Part shown: positions 30,001 to 36,000 of the stretch, piece by piece
Layout of the letters: each line of letters starts with the position of its first letter
Position numbering within the stretch: position 1 is the first letter of the stretch
Source: a virus
Taxonomy: Duplodnaviria > Heunggongvirae > Uroviricota > Caudoviricetes
DNA length: 64,000 nucleotides
Virus record (IMG/VR): IMGVR_UViG_2724679237_000005
Coordinates: 1-64,000 of that record
Direction: 5' to 3' (one strand)
Position numbers: made by a program

Positions 30001-33000
30001 CATCTTCTTTCTCGATAGGTAAGTGATTACCTATTTTTGCATTTGATTTTATGTCTGGCAATCAAATAAAACGCGCCAGAAATGCAAACGAGAAGCTCTC
30101 TGGCGCGTTTTTGTGGTGCTGGGTATGTGATTGGCTTACCCAGCACTATAAAGCTCTCTATGGGCTTTATTTTCAGTAGGGGAACGTCATCCAATAGTGT
30201 ACTCCGCGACAAACTTCTTAACGATCGGTGATTCTTCGTTCAATGTTAGATTTCCACCGTCTCTAACGGCAATTCCTGTCGCTGGAAATACAGCCATCAT
30301 TTGACCAGCCTGAGTTGACGCAGTGTTAAGCGGATACGGTTTTTCTGGATTGCTCATTAAAGCAATCTTAATACTATTACTTGTAGCCTTCTTTTCTGTG
30401 AGAAGGTGTCTCATGGAAATTACCGTGTAAACACTAATATCTGGACCTCCGCTAAACCAATTAAGAAGGTTTAATATCTTATCCTTCGCTTTGACAGGCG
30501 CGTTTTCGTAAGCGTCTAAGAAAGTATCTTTTTCTAAGCCTGCTTTATTGAAAAACGAATCATCTTTATCACTTAAAGTGAAACGAGGACCTCTTGCAGT
30601 ACGAGCTTTTTTATTTGTATTGCTATCATTTGACTGTTGAACTTTTAATTCTTCATTAACCTCAACACACCCTTCAACCTCAATAAATCCCAATTGTTCT
30701 GGCTCGTTTACGGCAGCTTCAACACTTTCAGCGTTAATTACGTTTATAGGCTCATGCGCTAACTCCAACTCATTTAAAGCAGAGCTGAAATCACCTGCTT
30801 TTTCTTCATTGAACAGTTCTTCGGCAACATCATCAGAACTCATGGCTACGCCAGCATCGAGGCCGAGCAGCAGATCGTCAATATCATCAGTATTTTCAAC
30901 CTGTGCAGCTTTTTTTACTGGTTCATCAAGTGATTGCAACATGGCTGTCAGCTCGTCCAGATCATCATTTGTCATTACAGTTTCAACCGAACTCATGTAA
31001 GTCTCCTTCTGTTTGGTTACATTTGCGTTTCGATGGCTACATTTTGACTAAACCTATCAGGCGGAAAAGTATTAAATACAGGCAGGAAATGATTGAAAGG
31101 CGACTGTTCTTTAAAAGAAAGCCTACTTTAAACTTTTTAAAGTAGGCTTTTGTTTTACACAATTTCAGAGGGTAATTTAAAAAATCCGTACTTGTTACGT
31201 GCCTTAAAAAAGCATTGCATCATTAAGTTTGTGTCATATAAGGCACTATGTGCTTTGGCATGATCGTATATAAAGCCAAGAGAGAAGGCCAATTCTTCAA
31301 GGCGAGGACGTTTACCGTCTTCTGTGGCCCACAATCCCGATAACATAGTATCTATAACGGGAACGTCTGGCAGTCTTACTCCATACCCTGAAAACTCGTG
31401 TCTAATAAATGGTATATCAAACGCTTCGCCGTTATGAGCAACCCACGCACTACATGCCTCCATATAAGCGCCAATTTCGCTGGCATGATTTGACAACAAA
31501 GGTTCAGCTGCCAGCTGTTCTAATGAAATGCCATGAACGGCCTGAGCTTTCGGATCTATGTTTCTGCGAGGGTTAAAACGCATCTCCAGACTATCAATAT
31601 GTCTCTGTGTCTCCAGTTCATAGCGGGTAATTGCGATTTCAATAATTTTATGACCAGCAAGGAAATCCAGCCCCGTAGACTCGATATCGATGCCTGCAAC
31701 AATCGTTGTCATCAAAACTCCTTACAACTTCTTAGCGCCCTTAAGTAGTGCGCTACGTACAAATTGAGCCGCTTTTTTCAAAGTTTCTTCACTGGTTTCA
31801 CATACAACCGGATCTTTCCACTTACCTGACGCCGTGTTGAGAATGTTGATTTGGTTGCTATCCAGACAAACAGAGACGTAAAGCACCGTGCCACCAGCCA
31901 GCATCAAATGCATAGGAAACAGAGGCTTTTTACTGCCTTCACTGAACTGAGACATGGCGATGTCAATGGCTTCACCTACTTGTGCGCCAACAAGCCCCTG
32001 CACAGTTTCGAATATGGCACGAATAGCCAGACGAGCCTCTCGATCGCTCATAAGCGACCGGGAATGTTCGTCCGCTACACGAATCAAAGCCTCTGTTGTT
32101 TTCCGATCCAGTTCATCTTCAAGCAACAGTTCACTAAACATTTTTTATCCTTAACCCATTTTGAGAGTTTTATTGTCGCAATGTCGAAGAGGCGAACAAT
32201 TTCTAATGAACGGTTACTCGGCCACAGAAGCGGTTTTCTATCTTTTCTACCGCGTTATCGAGCATTCTCATCACTGATCTGGCTCTTGCTTCAACCGTGC
32301 GATATCGGTTGGAAACGACGAAGGTTTGCAGATCTCCCCTTTGCGGATGCAGGTGAATTTTTGTCAGTTCCCCGCACATCAACGCATCAATACGAGCGAC
32401 ATACAGACGGTCTAATGATGCTCGTTGTGATCGCAAGTAATCTCGCTCTGAGAGAGCGACTCCCGGGCGTAAGCCAGCAATGGCGTTAAAGTTTGAAATA
32501 GCAGTTTTGTGGCAAAACTTTTCGATATCGAGGGCTAACTCAATACACCGATCTTCATTTGTATGGCCGACCAAATCCAACGTGTAGGCCATAACATCAG
32601 CAGGTGTGCGATCGATAACAAAGCCTTCAACACCACGTGTAAGTAGCTCTATATGCTTTGCTATTTCCATTTGAATCTGAAGCCGCTCATATAGAGGCAT
32701 AGACTCACCTACTCGAACACCGAGGCGGCTCATCAAACTTCCGACACCAGCATCCACGTAAGGGATTCCGTAATGTTTGTCGATATATTTAGCCAGGGTT
32801 GTTTTCCCACTGCCCTGAGCACCAGTGATCCCAATCCGGTAATCCATTACGACCTTCTGTATACGATCTGCGAAAAGCCAGGCTCTTCCTCGCTGGCTCG
32901 TTGGGTATAAGCTGTTTCAACAGGCACAAAGCCTAAGTTACGCATCATGCTTGCCGGGAAGAATGCATCAGCGTTTGGTACATCAACGCCGATGTGGGAG

Positions 33001-36000
33001 AGCCAAATCTCTTCAACATGCGGCATGAATAGCGAGTAAATTTGTTCCCCGCCAATCACCCACACAGGCTCTGGTAATCGCAACACATCATCCACACCAG
33101 CAGGGTAGAATCCATTTGGTACAAAGCCATGAGAGCGCGTCAAAACGAGGTTATGACGCTCTGGAAGAGGGCGTTTGAGACTTTCCATCGTTTTACGCCC
33201 CATAACGACAGTGGCGTTTTTGGTGAGTCTCTTAAATAGCTTCAGATCGGTAGAACAGCGCCAGGGCAGTTCGTTCGCTATGCCGATCTCATAGTTACGG
33301 CCAACAGCAGCTATCATCTTCATTTGCTCACCTCATAGATGACCGGTCTATGATGAGAGTCAGCTAAAGCGGCACGGAGTCGAGGATCGTGCACCAGCGC
33401 AGCGATAAGCAGATCGCCTTTATGCTCCGCTAATGTGCGTTTAATATGCTTCTCATAACTGGTGCTATTCGGTACGAGATGAAGCCAGTCGTAATCAACG
33501 CCAAAATCTTTCAGCCATCGTTTAGTGGGCGCTTCAAGAGTTTCAGAGCGGCTACTGATAAGCACCACTTCAGCCCCTGAGCGAGCAAAACCACGCAACA
33601 TACGGCTGGTGGGGAAAATGAGTTCATCACCGGCAATGAGCTGGCCTGCATCCGCGTCAGATACAGATTTACGATGGCTGGTATTTGCCAGCACACCTTC
33701 AATTTCGCATAAGACATACATACCTCTTGCCATATCACACCGCCACTGGAACCTTGATCCACGGTAGAGGGTCATAGCCAAGAATTAAAACCTCGTCCCA
33801 TTTGAAATCATCCAACTCTGACCATTCATGAGGGAAAATAACGACCGGATCTGAATGCTCTGGAGCCTGTCGTTTCATTAGCTCACACACACCTTCCATG
33901 TGGTTGTTGTACAAATGCACGTCAAAGCCAAAATGCACAAATGCACCGGCCATGTGACCCGTAATCTTCGCGAGAAAATGAGTGAGAATGCCATAGCCAG
34001 CAATATTGAATGGCATACCAACAAAAGTGTCTACGCTACGCTGTACGAGGCAGGAGTTGAGGATGCGTTTGGGGATTCCAAGTTCATCCAGTTCGGCTTC
34101 AGTAACACTGCCGTCCATCTCCAGATCGTATAGCATCTTGGTGTAGATAGACTCGTAACCGAGGCGACTGTGTTGAAGACCAATGTCAGTTGCCATCGTT
34201 AAACGGGTTTCAAAATCCAGCTCACGACTCCACAAAGAGAAGACAAAGTGGCAAGGTGGCAGCTTCATATCCTCAAGCTCGCCTACGTTCCATGCGTTAA
34301 GCATGATGCGACGATCGGTAGGGTTCGTGCGCAGTGTATCGACAATACGCTGTAGCTGATCGATTTCACGGGACAGCACTACGCGATCTTCACAGATACC
34401 CAGGTATCCCTCGACTTTGTACCCGCGTTCACGGAAAGTAGCGATCTTGCTCAGATATTCACTATGGCTCACGATGCGGGTATCTTCCCATCGACGCCAC
34501 TGCTTACCGTAAACCGGCCCCAAATCGCCATTCTCATCGGCCCATGCATCCCAAATCTTAACGCCGTTATCCTTGAGAAATTGGATGTTGCCCGTGCCTT
34601 TCAGATACCACTCAAGTTCGACAAGTAGTGGCTTAAGATTTACCGCCTTTCCAGAAATAAGCGGCACAGTCCCACCAGTAAGCATGTAGTAAGAGGGAAC
34701 GTAGCAGGTGCTTAAAGTACCAGTGCCTGTGCGATCATCAGCCTGCACGCCGCTTTTAAGCACCGTCTCAATAACTTTTGCATACGATGCGTTTGTTACC
34801 TGACCGTTCGTATGCTCACGATTCAAAAGGAGTGACACAATAACCTCACAAAGATAAGTAATTACTTATTCATTGCGTGAGTTTACATTTATTGAGGGGA
34901 CAAGGCCAGATAGATAAAAAAATGGTGGCCATAGGCCACCAAAAACGAATAGTTGTTTCAGGAATTTAACGCGCCAACACAATATACATAGATAGATAAC
35001 TACCTACAATTATTTTTTGATCATTCCATACATTGCTGAGGATTTAGCTTGCTCAACAAAGGAGGATAAATCGACATCACTATAGGTTGGAGACTTCAGA
35101 ATCTTTCCATCGGAAATTCGAAAACCGATCATCTTATCGGTGCCATCAGCATGGCGGAATCCCAGATCTGAAGAGTCGTATTTGCAGTTGGCCACAGCCT
35201 GGCGACGTTCCTCGACATCAGCAGGCCATAATTTTGTCATGTTCGACCGATGAATTTCGCCAACCAGCTCGACTACATTGATACCGAGGAAATCAGCCAG
35301 TCGATAGGTCATCATGCACGCCACATAGATTTTGTTCATGACACGGCGCAGTTCCTGAATCAGTTCAGAATCCTTAACAGTCTTGTTCTCAAGTTTATCT
35401 GCCAGCTCTTCGAGCATACATGACGCCTCACGAGCTTCCTGAAATGGCATTGCCATATCATCGAAAACAGTGTTACCGGGCACAAAAATTGTCTGCATAA
35501 AGCGATCAATGCTCTGTTCCTGCGTGTAATAGGTCATGCCGGTAGAAATACCACCTTTGATGGCGACCATCGTACCAACACCAACGTATAAAAAGTCGGC
35601 CATTGCATCCAGCAGTTGCTCAATATCCCCATTCATTGCGGCTGGAATACCTTCCACTACAGCTTCTTCATGAATCAGGCTTGCACGGAGACGAAGCAGC
35701 TCTGGTGTCGGCATAACGCGTCTCGGATGCTGGAAGAGTTCATGAAACTGATCGACCATCTTGTAAATACTTTCAGTAGCTACACCATGACCTTCATGCA
35801 ACTCATATGGTTCTGGCTTAAATCCAATGAGACGATCGGTGGCAAGTTTCAGGTGGTCAGTCAGTTTGGTAAAGTTCATGCTAGTTTTGTTCCTTCTTAA
35901 TTCTTGTGATCCATTGTGGCCCAGCGTTGCCAGGCCACATAATGCTTTGTATCGGTTTACAGGTCTGCAAACTGGCTTAGAGAAGCCTTGTCCACGGTAG

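What the first reader, a model, noticed from the sequence alone, without database searches (positions are those of the whole stretch)
32203..35879. Nucleotide-pool module with MazG-like pyrophosphatase and a thymidylate synthase homolog carrying a 50-aa insertion
A P-loop kinase, DHFR, a small unknown protein, a ThyA-family enzyme and a tandem MazG-like NTP pyrophosphatase are adjacent. The ThyA homolog keeps the catalytic Cys but has an insertion of about 50 aa after it. This combination (pyrophosphatase plus ThyA-like enzyme plus kinase) is the toolkit phages use either for canonical dTMP synthesis or for replacing a base with a modified pyrimidine. The sequence alone cannot say which.
Basis: inference. 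Interest (0 to 1): 0.45.

Follow-up and report, generated by a model that had tools for sequence, protein, structure and literature searches.

The report
Ordinary phage-plasmid thymidylate synthesis module
This is the standard dTMP-making gene set of a well-known SSU5/Cyrano-type phage-plasmid of E. coli; its thymidylate synthase has two extra surface segments but every feature of a normal enzyme, so nothing points to modified DNA bases.

Summary
The five genes are real and lie at the stated coordinates, all on the minus strand. The window is 98.7% identical here to Escherichia phage-plasmid Cyrano. The same module is on ~110-kb plasmids in 233 of 5,426 complete E. coli genomes and in pHCM2 of S. 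Typhi.

The ThyA homolog does carry a ~51-aa insertion just after the catalytic Cys196. Both insertions occur widely in phage ThyA, including jumbo phages.

Every catalytic and folate-binding residue of E. coli ThyA is kept, including Asn for uracil, Trp80/Trp83, His147, Gln165 and the C-terminal PVAV. The protein passes the TIGR03284 equivalog cutoff, and its core superposes on E. coli TS (TM 0.94). It is only about 20% identical to the dUMP hydroxymethylases of SPO1 and M6.

The kinase is not a 5-hmU DNA kinase. Its relatives sit next to DHFR, dUTPase, ThyA or ThyX. The "tandem MazG" is a single all-alpha pyrophosphohydrolase domain closest in fold to dimeric dUTPases. The "small unknown protein" is a HAD/PNKP-phosphatase-like protein that lacks the catalytic Asp. 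The DHFR matches the DfrA51 family.

Verdict: canonical dUTP→dUMP→dTMP→dTDP supply with folate recycling. Ordinary and already annotated.

The parts
37205..39520 (-). NrdA, class Ia ribonucleotide reductase large subunit (upstream supplier of dNDPs)
   Evidence: ORF of 771 aa. Annotated as the RNR alpha subunit in Cyrano and SSU5.
35957..37099 (-). NrdB, ribonucleotide reductase small subunit
   Evidence: Pfam Ribonuc_red_sm, E 4.9e-46. The ATG start at 37099 matches the 1143-nt CDS of Cyrano.
35010..35879 (-). Single-domain all-alpha NTP pyrophosphohydrolase (MazG/PRA-PH superfamily, DR2231-like, fold closest to dimeric dUTPases); proposed dUTPase
34923..34941 (-). Intrinsic terminator between the MazG-like gene and thyA
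   Evidence: 8-bp stem with 6 GC pairs, a 3-nt loop and a T7 tail.
33735..34838 (-). ThyA, folate-dependent thymidylate synthase, 367 aa, GTG start; catalytic Cys196 at 34251-34253
   Evidence: Pfam PF00303, E 2.2e-78. TIGR03284 scores 219 bits against a cutoff of 108. E 3e-60 to E. coli TS. AF2 model has pLDDT 94.7. TM 0.94 on E. coli TS. All catalytic residues are invariant.
34374..34484 (-). ThyA insertion 1 (residues 119-155, about 34 aa net), at the position of E. coli residues 103-105
   Evidence: The model shows a strand, two short helices and two strands at pLDDT >90. No Pfam hit.
34059..34229 (-). ThyA insertion 2 (residues 204-260, about 51 aa net), in the beta-hairpin that follows the catalytic Cys (E. 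coli 154-159); three helices in the model
   Evidence: Shared by 229 phage records. Its length co-varies with insertion 1 (r = 0.80). No PDB or Pfam relative by sequence.
33320..33733 (-). HAD/PNKP-phosphatase-like protein, 137 aa, lacking the catalytic DxD motif (probable pseudo-phosphatase)
   Evidence: Pfam HAD_PNKP, E 9.7e-5, below its cutoff. phrog_5387, with weaker hits to polynucleotide kinase families. Aligns to the Pnkp1 phosphatase domain (4xrp) with DLDGT opposite EIEGV. Orthologs read EIEDV, TIDGV and GFVGT at this motif.
32847..33323 (-). Dihydrofolate reductase, DfrA51 family
   Evidence: Pfam DHFR_1, E 1.6e-34. NCBIfam DfrA51 scores 338 bits against a cutoff of 322. 91% identical to SSU5 DfrA51 and 100% identical to the Cyrano DHFR.
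32203..32847 (-). P-loop small-molecule kinase of the AAA_28 family; proposed dTMP/dNMP kinase
   Evidence: Pfam AAA_28, E 2e-9. phrog_2107 'thymidylate kinase', E 2.9e-10. The family has 2,218 representatives, with an invariant GxxGxGK...DRxP...Y pattern. Homologs lie next to DHFR, dUTPase, MazG, ThyA or ThyX.

Best explanation
This is the canonical de novo thymidylate-supply module of an SSU5/Cyrano-type phage-plasmid.

Proposed pathway:
- NrdAB makes deoxynucleoside diphosphates.
- The MazG-like all-alpha pyrophosphohydrolase most likely hydrolyses dUTP to dUMP + PPi. This keeps uracil out of DNA and feeds ThyA (inferred from fold and gene context).
- ThyA methylates dUMP with 5,10-methylene-THF to give dTMP + dihydrofolate (inferred from complete conservation of the thymidylate synthase active site, fold and C-terminus).
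- The translationally coupled DHFR regenerates tetrahydrofolate. Activity was shown by others for the 91%-identical SSU5 enzyme through trimethoprim resistance on expression.
- The P-loop kinase most likely phosphorylates dTMP to dTDP (inferred from gene context only).

The two ThyA insertions form an extra surface element that leaves the catalytic machinery intact; their role is unknown. The HAD-like protein has lost its catalytic aspartates and is probably non-enzymatic. In the identical module of Cyrano, the genes are not among those transcribed above background in lysogens. The module therefore probably boosts dTTP supply during induced or lytic replication. The DNA made is ordinary thymine DNA.
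For: Identity of the element. The region is 98.7% identical to Cyrano and 76% to SSU5. It is found in 233 of 5,426 complete E. coli genomes, in 235 of 237 places on plasmids, and in 680 PLSDB plasmids including pHCM2.

ThyA.
- E 3e-60 to E. coli TS, aligned end to end apart from the two insertions.
- TIGR03284 scores 219 bits against a cutoff of 108.
- These residues are invariant across 62 relatives: R36, E74, W96, W99, Y110, R176, R177, C196, H197, R267, S268, D270, N278, D306, H308 and Y310. Q266 is nearly invariant. The protein ends in PVAV.
- The core superposes on E. coli TS at TM 0.94.
- phrog_160 (thymidylate synthase) scores 8.8e-95, against 7e-17 for phrog_5131, the family of the M6 dUMP hydroxymethylase.
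- Identity is 20-21% to M6 gp58 and SPO1 gp29. Both of those lack W80/W83, H147, Q165 and the TS C-terminus.

DHFR. It overlaps the neighbouring genes at ATGA and TAATG junctions. It belongs to the DfrA51 family. DfrA51 is functional when expressed (PMC12217456).

MazG-like protein. The closest folds are dimeric dUTPases and DR2231. In Rhizobium phage RHph_X66, a trimeric dUTPase occupies the equivalent position beside the kinase homolog, near ThyX and NrdAB.

Kinase. Homologs are adjacent to DHFR, MazG or dUTPase in five independent contexts, with three different kinds of thymidylate synthase.

Expression. CYRAN_69-75 are absent from the list of lysogen-expressed genes (PMC9928086).

Other genes. 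No aGPT-Pplase, glycosyltransferase or dCMP deaminase is annotated in Cyrano.
Confidence: 0.85

Rival explanations
1. Base-replacement toolkit. The ThyA homolog is a dUMP (or dCMP) hydroxymethylase, the MazG-like enzyme removes dTTP, the HAD-like protein is a dTMPase, and the kinase phosphorylates the modified nucleotide or 5-hmU in DNA. Virion DNA would then carry a modified pyrimidine.
For: The gene set superficially parallels the hmU-phage toolkit described in PMC8989533: a TS homolog, dTTPase, dTMPase and dNMP kinase. ThyA carries unusual insertions.
Against: ThyA keeps all TS-specific residues and the TS C-terminus, which SPO1 gp29 and M6 gp58 lack. It is only 20-21% identical to those enzymes. 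Asn278, not Asp, sits at the pyrimidine-specificity position, which argues against dCMP as substrate. The coupled DHFR is unnecessary for a hydroxymethylase, which does not oxidise the folate (established enzymology). The HAD-like protein lacks the nucleophilic Asp in all five orthologs. The kinase shares only its P-loop with M6 5-HMUDK and does not hit phrog_800. No aGPT-Pplase or other modification gene is annotated. The same insertion-bearing ThyA occurs in many unrelated phages. The kinase family also pairs with ThyX, for which no hydroxymethylating activity is known to me.
Confidence: 0.03
2. The module is mainly host-benefit cargo: a trimethoprim-insensitive folate/thymidylate bypass expressed from the plasmid state, rather than a phage replication function.
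For: The DHFR passes the DfrA51 model cutoff and RefSeq labels it dfrA51. SSU5 DfrA51 raised the trimethoprim MIC 64- to 128-fold when expressed in E. coli (PMC12217456).
Against: E. coli LF82 carries a 100%-identical DHFR on Cyrano and has a trimethoprim MIC of 0.125-0.33 ug/mL (PMC9928086). The module genes are not among the Cyrano genes transcribed above background in lysogens. A phage-plasmid DHFR from E. coli O104:H4 conferred no resistance (PMC7725336). The genes sit among replication and recombination genes (RNR, exonuclease, RuvC, SbcCD), as in lytic phages.
Confidence: 0.07
3. The MazG-like enzyme is not a dUTPase. It would instead be a broader house-cleaning or pool-shaping NTP pyrophosphohydrolase, for example acting on dCTP/dGTP or aberrant dNTPs, as reported for other phage MazG proteins.
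For: Sequence places it only in the general PRA-PH/MazG superfamily. Identity to dUTPases is 7-16%. A terminator separates it from thyA. BFVD neighbours are mostly unnamed NTP-PPases.
Confidence: 0.25

Closest known systems
E. coli ThyA (thymidylate synthase, EC 2.1.1.45; PDB 2tsc, 1tys and others)
   Same: 44% identity over aligned columns. Identical catalytic, phosphate-binding, uracil-specificity and folate-binding residues, and the same C-terminal PVA[IV]. Core TM-score 0.94.
   Different: A 17-aa N-terminal extension and two insertions (about 34 aa at E. coli 103-105 and about 51 aa at E. coli 154-159). No solved structure covers them.
ThyA of jumbo and other large phages (201phi2-1, SPN3US, Erwinia jumbo phages, Rhizobium, Flavobacterium and Cellulophaga phages)
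   Same: They carry the same insertion after the catalytic Cys. 229 phage records cover at least 80% of the 108-aa segment at 35-42% identity. They are annotated simply as thymidylate synthase. Metagenomic relatives of 325-355 aa share both insertions.
   Different: Their insertions are somewhat shorter. They are not next to the HAD-like/DHFR/kinase block: in locus L014 the neighbours are a canonical Thymidylate_kin and an RNR small subunit.
T4-type frd-td-nrd nucleotide precursor genes
   Same: Both combine phage-encoded DHFR, ThyA, NrdAB, an all-alpha dCTPase/dUTPase-type pyrophosphatase and a dNMP kinase to boost dNTP supply. The T4 side rests on my own knowledge, and on PMC7725336 for the frequent folA-thyA tandem in phages.
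   Different: There is no dCMP hydroxymethylase, no intron in thyA (no Rfam hit) and no annotated dCMP deaminase. The kinase and the pyrophosphatase belong to different families. The carrier is a temperate phage-plasmid.
dUMP hydroxymethylases SPO1 gp29 and M6 gp58 with 5-HMUDK (thymidine hypermodification pathway; PMC5889632, PMC8989533)
   Same: The same superfamily fold. Cys, Arg166/Ser167/Asp169 and Asn177 are conserved.
   Different: 20-21% identity. The hydroxymethylases lack W80/W83, His147 and Gln165 and carry roughly 100-aa C-terminal extensions. They fall in a different PHROG (5131, not 160). The window kinase is not 5-HMUDK-like.
DR2231 of Deinococcus radiodurans and the dimeric dUTPases (Leishmania major 2yay, Staphylococcus phage 5myd, C. 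jejuni 1w2y)
   Different: 289 aa, with an extra helical hairpin (about residues 105-185) and a small beta unit. Identity is 7-22%. Substrate untested.
DfrA51 (SSU5 DHFR, trimethoprim resistance gene; PMC12217456)
   Same: 91% identity. Residues A6, I13, D26 and S48 are conserved. The score is above the NCBIfam DfrA51 cutoff.
   Different: A strain carrying the identical allele on Cyrano is trimethoprim-susceptible.

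Membership tests
Thymidylate synthase ThyA (PF00303 / TIGR03284) | Score above the curated family cutoffs | tested here: met
   PF00303 scores 263.5 bits against a cutoff of 24.3. The TIGR03284 equivalog scores 219 against a cutoff of 108.35.
Thymidylate synthase ThyA (PF00303 / TIGR03284) | Catalytic Cys146, phosphate-binding R21/R126'/R127'/R166/S167, and E58, Y94, H147, Q165, D169, H207, Y209 (E. coli numbering) | tested here: met
   R36, R176, R177, R267, S268, E74, Y110, C196, H197, D270, H308 and Y310 are invariant, and Q266 is nearly invariant, across 62 relatives.
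Thymidylate synthase ThyA (PF00303 / TIGR03284) | Asn177 for uracil (dUMP) specificity, not the Asp of dCMP-specific relatives | tested here: met
   Asn278 lies in the PFNIAGY motif and is invariant.
Thymidylate synthase ThyA (PF00303 / TIGR03284) | Folate-binding Trp80/Trp83 (IWDEWAD) and a free C-terminal PVA[IV] that closes the active site for hydride transfer | tested here: met
   The protein reads IWDAWADENGDLGPVYG and ends in PVAV.
Thymidylate synthase ThyA (PF00303 / TIGR03284) | TS fold | tested here: met
   AF2 pLDDT 94.7. Foldseek TM 0.94 normalised to E. coli TS, E 7e-32.
Thymidylate synthase ThyA (PF00303 / TIGR03284) | Catalysis: dUMP + CH2-THF gives dTMP + DHF | not testable with these tools
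   Requires an enzyme assay or thyA complementation.
dUMP hydroxymethylase (SPO1 gp29 / M6 gp58 type) | Sequence membership in the hydroxymethylase clades | tested here: not met
   BLASTP E 0.032 at about 20% identity to gp29 and E 2e-4 at 21% to gp58. phrog_5131 scores 7e-17 for the window protein against 1.9e-172 for gp58.
dUMP hydroxymethylase (SPO1 gp29 / M6 gp58 type) | The hydroxymethylase-type active-site pattern seen in both reference enzymes: no W80/W83, Cys-Asn instead of Cys-His, Asn instead of Gln165, and a long C-terminal extension | tested here: not met
   The window protein has the TS state at every one of these positions.
dUMP hydroxymethylase (SPO1 gp29 / M6 gp58 type) | Co-occurrence with 5-HMUDK, aGPT-Pplase or other hypermodification genes | tested here: not met
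   The kinase shares only its P-loop with M6 gp54. None of these genes is annotated in Cyrano, which is annotation-level sensitivity only.
5-hydroxymethyluracil DNA kinase (5-HMUDK) | Homology beyond the P-loop to a proven 5-HMUDK (M6 gp54, phrog_800) | tested here: not met
   Only 18 residues align, around the P-loop, E 0.004. The window kinase hits phrog_168 and phrog_2107, not phrog_800.
MazG / all-alpha NTP pyrophosphohydrolase superfamily | PRA-PH/MazG domain with conserved acidic metal-binding helices | tested here: met
   PF01503 scores 34.8 bits against a cutoff of 21.3. E71, E72, E76 and D95 are invariant and D91 is nearly invariant in 28 orthologs.
MazG / all-alpha NTP pyrophosphohydrolase superfamily | Tandem arrangement of two MazG domains (as in E. 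coli MazG) | tested here: not met
   There is one Pfam domain. hhalign of the N-terminal half against the middle half gives probability 0.5%. The acidic residues of the second helical pair are not conserved.
Dimeric dUTPase / DR2231-like dUTP pyrophosphatase | Fold similarity to dimeric dUTPases | tested here: met
Dimeric dUTPase / DR2231-like dUTP pyrophosphatase | dUTP specificity | not testable with these tools
   Needs a substrate panel. The only support is gene context.
DfrA51 trimethoprim-resistant DHFR | Score above the NCBIfam NF047324 cutoff, with resistance-relevant residues A6, I13, D26 and S48 | tested here: met
   338.2 bits against a cutoff of 322. The residues are present.
DfrA51 trimethoprim-resistant DHFR | Confers trimethoprim resistance | tested here: inconclusive
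   It does so when SSU5 dfrA51 is expressed from vectors. But LF82, carrying the identical allele, has an MIC of 0.125-0.33 ug/mL, and an E. coli O104:H4 phage-plasmid DHFR gave no resistance.
HAD phosphatase (PNKP-type) | Homology to the HAD/PNKP phosphatase domain | tested here: inconclusive
   PF25109 scores 23 bits, below its cutoff of 27.6. Pnkp1 (4xrp) matches at E 1e-5 over 105 residues.
HAD phosphatase (PNKP-type) | Motif I DxDx(T/V) with a nucleophilic Asp | tested here: not met
   The motif reads EIEGV here and EIEDV, TIDGV and GFVGT in orthologs. The first position is never Asp.
Thymidylate kinase (PF02223) | Family-level sequence match | tested here: not met
   There is no PF02223 hit. 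Instead AAA_28 is matched by 40 of 40 family members. PDB matches are confined to the P-loop, except for a weak match to deoxyguanosine kinase over residues 1-96, E 0.007. 'Works like a dTMP kinase' rests on gene context only.

The most novel reading that the evidence does not exclude
The two co-varying ThyA insertions build an uncharacterised accessory domain, found in SSU5-type phage-plasmids and many jumbo phages. It would serve as a docking surface. In this element it could dock the catalytically dead HAD-like protein, DHFR and the kinase, all translationally coupled to ThyA, into a thymidylate-channelling complex.
Probability: 0.12. Interest if true: 0.45.

Novelty: already known. Interest (0 to 1): 0.14.

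Why it matters
It matters little as a discovery. The module is a routine, widely sequenced part of SSU5/pHCM2/Cyrano-type phage-plasmids, and RefSeq already names its parts. The check has three uses:
- It removes a speculative link to DNA base modification.
- It flags that a gene auto-annotated as the resistance determinant dfrA51 sits in a probably lytic-phase operon, in a host reported to be trimethoprim-susceptible. This bears on AMR genotype-to-phenotype calls.
- It points to three small uncharacterised items: an insertion-bearing phage ThyA subfamily with no solved structure, a conserved pseudo-HAD protein, and a large AAA_28 kinase family tied to thymidylate genes.

Tried and rejected
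- Hydroxymethylase reading: rejected after direct comparison with SPO1 gp29 and M6 gp58 and with their PHROG families.
- 5-HMUDK reading of the kinase: rejected.
- Tandem MazG: rejected.
- HAD-like protein as a dTMPase: rejected because the catalytic Asp is missing.
- Intron, intein or RNA element as the source of the ThyA insertion: no Rfam match in 31000-40000. The insertion is in frame, conserved as protein and confidently folded.
- Defence-system membership: only P-loop-level PADLOC hits.
- Sequence relatives of the insertions alone: none in PDB or Pfam.
- Literature on the insertion and on pHCM2 or SSU5 ThyA: nothing relevant found.
- Deeper assignment of the kinase by profile search against PDB: only P-loop matches, plus a weak match to deoxyguanosine kinase.
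- L019 p135 as an ortholog of the HAD-like protein: no detectable similarity.

Full report
**What is there.** The region 32203-35879 holds five minus-strand genes:
- a P-loop kinase-like protein (32203-32847, Pfam AAA_28);
- DHFR (32847-33323);
- a 137-aa protein (33320-33733);
- ThyA (33735-34838, 367 aa);
- a MazG/PRA-PH-family protein (35010-35879, 289 aa, from the ATG used in related annotations).

NrdB (35957-37099) and NrdA (37205-39520) lie immediately upstream. Downstream are a conserved 139-aa protein, a DnaQ-like exonuclease and a Dam methyltransferase.

A strong intrinsic terminator (34941-34923, minus strand) lies between the MazG-like gene and thyA. The junctions within thyA-had-dhfr-kinase are tight: TGA-T-ATG, then ATGA, then TAATG. 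This suggests one translationally coupled unit.

**Whose genes these are.** The stretch is 98.7% identical to Escherichia phage-plasmid Cyrano (pLF82) and 76% identical to Salmonella phage SSU5. It occurs in 233 of 5,426 complete E. coli genomes, with 235 of 237 places on plasmids of about 110 kb. It also occurs in 680 PLSDB plasmids of Klebsiella, Escherichia, Enterobacter, Salmonella and other genera, including pHCM2 of S. Typhi CT18. RefSeq already labels the genes thymidylate synthase, pyrophosphohydrolase domain-containing protein, AAA family ATPase, dfrA51 and HAD family hydrolase.

**The ThyA homolog.** Eight residues after catalytic Cys196, residues 204-260 replace the six-residue hairpin turn of E. 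coli ThyA (154-159). That is a net insertion of about 51 aa. There is also a second insertion of about 34 aa net (residues 119-155, where E. coli has residues 103-105).

Both insertions are folded with high confidence in an AlphaFold2 model (mean pLDDT 94.7). Insertion 1 forms strands and short helices; insertion 2 forms three helices. The core superposes on E. coli TS with TM 0.94. No solved structure covers the insertions; the best query-normalised TM is 0.73. Neither insertion has sequence relatives in Pfam, and insertion 2 has none in the PDB.

The insertions are not peculiar to this element. All SSU5-type relatives have them, down to 47% identity. So do 325-355-aa ThyA proteins on large metagenomic contigs. 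The 108-aa segment spanning insertion 2 is covered at 80% or more in 229 phage records. These include jumbo phages 201phi2-1, SPN3US and Erwinia jumbo phages, and Rhizobium, Flavobacterium and Cellulophaga phages.

The lengths of the two insertions co-vary (r = 0.80 over 62 sequences). This fits, but does not show, that they pack together. Insertion 2 sits at the tip of the hairpin formed by the strand leaving Cys146 and the strand returning to Arg166. It should therefore lie at the end of those strands away from the active site. This is inferred from topology; I could not inspect coordinates.

**Methylase or hydroxymethylase.** The sequence does discriminate.
- Against E. coli ThyA the protein gives E 3e-60 and 44% identity over aligned columns.
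- It passes the TIGR03284 equivalog cutoff, 219 bits against 108.
- Every residue I checked is conserved: R21, E58, W80, W83, Y94, R126, R127, C146, H147, Q165, R166, S167, D169, N177, D205, H207 and Y209 (E. coli numbering). The protein ends in PVAV, like the PVAI of E. coli.

I fetched two reference dUMP hydroxymethylases, SPO1 gp29 and M6 gp58. SPO1 gp29 is annotated in its record as dUMP hydroxymethylase. I took M6 gp58 to be the phage's dUMP hydroxymethylase because it is M6's thymidylate synthase homolog, lying beside the 5-HMUDK gene gp54, and M6 initially replaces thymidine with 5-hmdU. They are 20-21% identical to the window protein. In a joint alignment both lack W80/W83, have Cys-Asn instead of Cys-His, have Asn instead of Gln165, and carry long unrelated C-terminal extensions. 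M6 gp58 belongs to phrog_5131 (1.9e-172). The window protein belongs to phrog_160 (8.8e-95) and scores only 7e-17 against phrog_5131.

Asn at the 177 position argues for dUMP rather than dCMP, on established knowledge of TS and dCMP hydroxymethylase specificity. A hydroxymethylase releases THF, not DHF, so a tightly coupled DHFR also fits methylation (established enzymology).

**The other genes.**

*Kinase.* It shares only the P-loop with the proven 5-hmU DNA kinase M6 gp54. It belongs to a large family of roughly 205-aa proteins: 2,218 representatives at E ≤ 0.001. The family has an invariant GxxGxGK, R55, Q59, D79-R80-x-P82 and Y88. All 40 scanned members hit Pfam AAA_28.

Its homologs sit in thymidylate neighbourhoods:
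- right after a trimeric dUTPase, near ThyX, glutaredoxin and NrdAB, in Rhizobium phage RHph_X66;
- after DHFR in three distant elements;
- after a MazG;
- in a block of short ThyA ... DHFR-kinase-p150-exonuclease-dUTPase.

It therefore accompanies three kinds of thymidylate synthase, with and without the insertions. A dTMP/dNMP kinase role is the best guess, but it rests on context. There is no Thymidylate_kin Pfam match, and PDB similarity beyond the P-loop is marginal.

*HAD-like protein.* The 137-aa protein aligns to the phosphatase domain of Pnkp1 (4xrp), but the DLDGT motif reads EIEGV. Orthologs read EIEDV, TIDGV and GFVGT, so the nucleophilic Asp is never present. Motifs II and IV are not conserved either. 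It is probably a pseudo-phosphatase. Even so, it keeps its place between thyA and dhfr in Salmonella, Klebsiella, Xenorhabdus and a metagenomic relative.

*DHFR.* It scores above the NCBIfam DfrA51 cutoff. It is 91% identical to SSU5 DfrA51 and 100% identical to the Cyrano enzyme.

[quoted passage not shown] LF82 has a trimethoprim MIC of 0.125-0.33 ug/mL. Cloned SSU5 dfrA51 raises the MIC to 128-512 mg/L (PMC12217456). A phage-plasmid DHFR from E. coli O104:H4 gave no resistance (PMC7725336). The simplest reading is a module used during induced replication rather than in the plasmid state.

**Whole-element check.** The Cyrano annotation lists DNA pol III alpha, helicase, primase, ligase, T4-like UvsY/gp32/UvsW, RecA and glutaredoxin. 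It also lists two amino-methyltransferase-type genes. It lists no aGPT-Pplase, glycosyltransferase or dCMP deaminase. This is annotation-level evidence only.

**Verdict.** This is a canonical thymidylate-supply module (RNR, probable dUTPase, ThyA, DHFR, probable dTMP kinase) of a known phage-plasmid. My confidence is about 0.85. The base-replacement reading is about 0.03. The insertion-bearing ThyA subfamily, the pseudo-HAD protein and the AAA_28 kinase family are uncharacterised details, not signs of a new system. Interest is low.

Noticed in passing
window 32847-33323 (-): The DHFR passes the curated DfrA51 (trimethoprim resistance) model, and RefSeq names it dfrA51. Yet E. coli LF82, which carries a 100%-identical allele on Cyrano, has a trimethoprim MIC of 0.125-0.33 ug/mL, and the gene is not among the lysogen-expressed genes. 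A related E. coli phage-plasmid DHFR also gave no resistance in another study. AMR genotype calls for this gene may overstate the phenotype.
   Followed up: partly
window 33320-33733 (-): A HAD/PNKP-phosphatase-like protein whose DxDxT motif is ExExV here and never has the nucleophilic Asp in five orthologs. It nevertheless keeps its position between thyA and dhfr across genera. Probably a conserved pseudoenzyme of unknown role.
   Followed up: partly
window 31155-32847 (-); loci L012, L013, L015, L016, L019: The order kinase, then a protein of about 140-150 aa with no Pfam match (31722-32141 here), then a DnaQ/RNase_T-like exonuclease (31155-31715) recurs in distant elements and metagenomic contigs. 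This suggests a conserved three-gene unit beyond the thymidylate genes.
   Followed up: partly
window 34923-34941 (-): A strong intrinsic terminator separates nrdA-nrdB-mazG from thyA-had-dhfr-kinase, so the 'module' is probably two transcription units.
   Followed up: yes
window 29410-30003 (-) and 23769-25454 (-): Two probable DNA amino-methyltransferases. One is a Dam-family enzyme (Pfam Dam, E 2.5e-38). The other is a 561-aa protein with an NPPY motif, which appears to correspond to the DUF4942 protein of Cyrano (correspondence not checked by alignment). These are the only DNA-modifying genes I saw.
   Followed up: no
window 18258-23406: GC falls to 34% in the 22001-24000 bin. An ORF there (22429-22917) looks like a MarR-type regulator, and it lies next to a 1,211-aa ORF (18258-21893) that looks like an intimin/invasin-type adhesin. 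Both readings are by eye from the translations and were not tested. Possibly accessory cargo.
   Followed up: no
BFVD entry A0A481Z0N6 (Mimivirus LCMiAC01): The best viral structural match of the MazG-like model is a 471-aa protein labelled thymidine kinase. It appears to be a fusion of a thymidine kinase with a PRA-PH-like domain, which would link this pyrophosphatase family to thymidine nucleotide metabolism.
   Followed up: no
proteins P0233, P0235, P0237 (alignment A4): Some database entries run a DHFR C-terminal segment into the kinase sequence. In P0235 and P0237 parts of the sequence are scrambled. They look like frameshifted or mis-assembled copies of the overlapping dhfr-kinase junction rather than real fusions.
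   Followed up: no
E. coli genomes: Two of the 237 places holding this module are on chromosomes rather than plasmids. They may be integrated copies or assembly artefacts.
   Followed up: no
Cyrano record OV696614, loci L006 and L008: The element also encodes CobT- and CobS-like cobalamin genes, a methionyl-tRNA synthetase, three tRNAs, a DNA pol III alpha subunit, and several toxin-antitoxin pairs.
   Followed up: no
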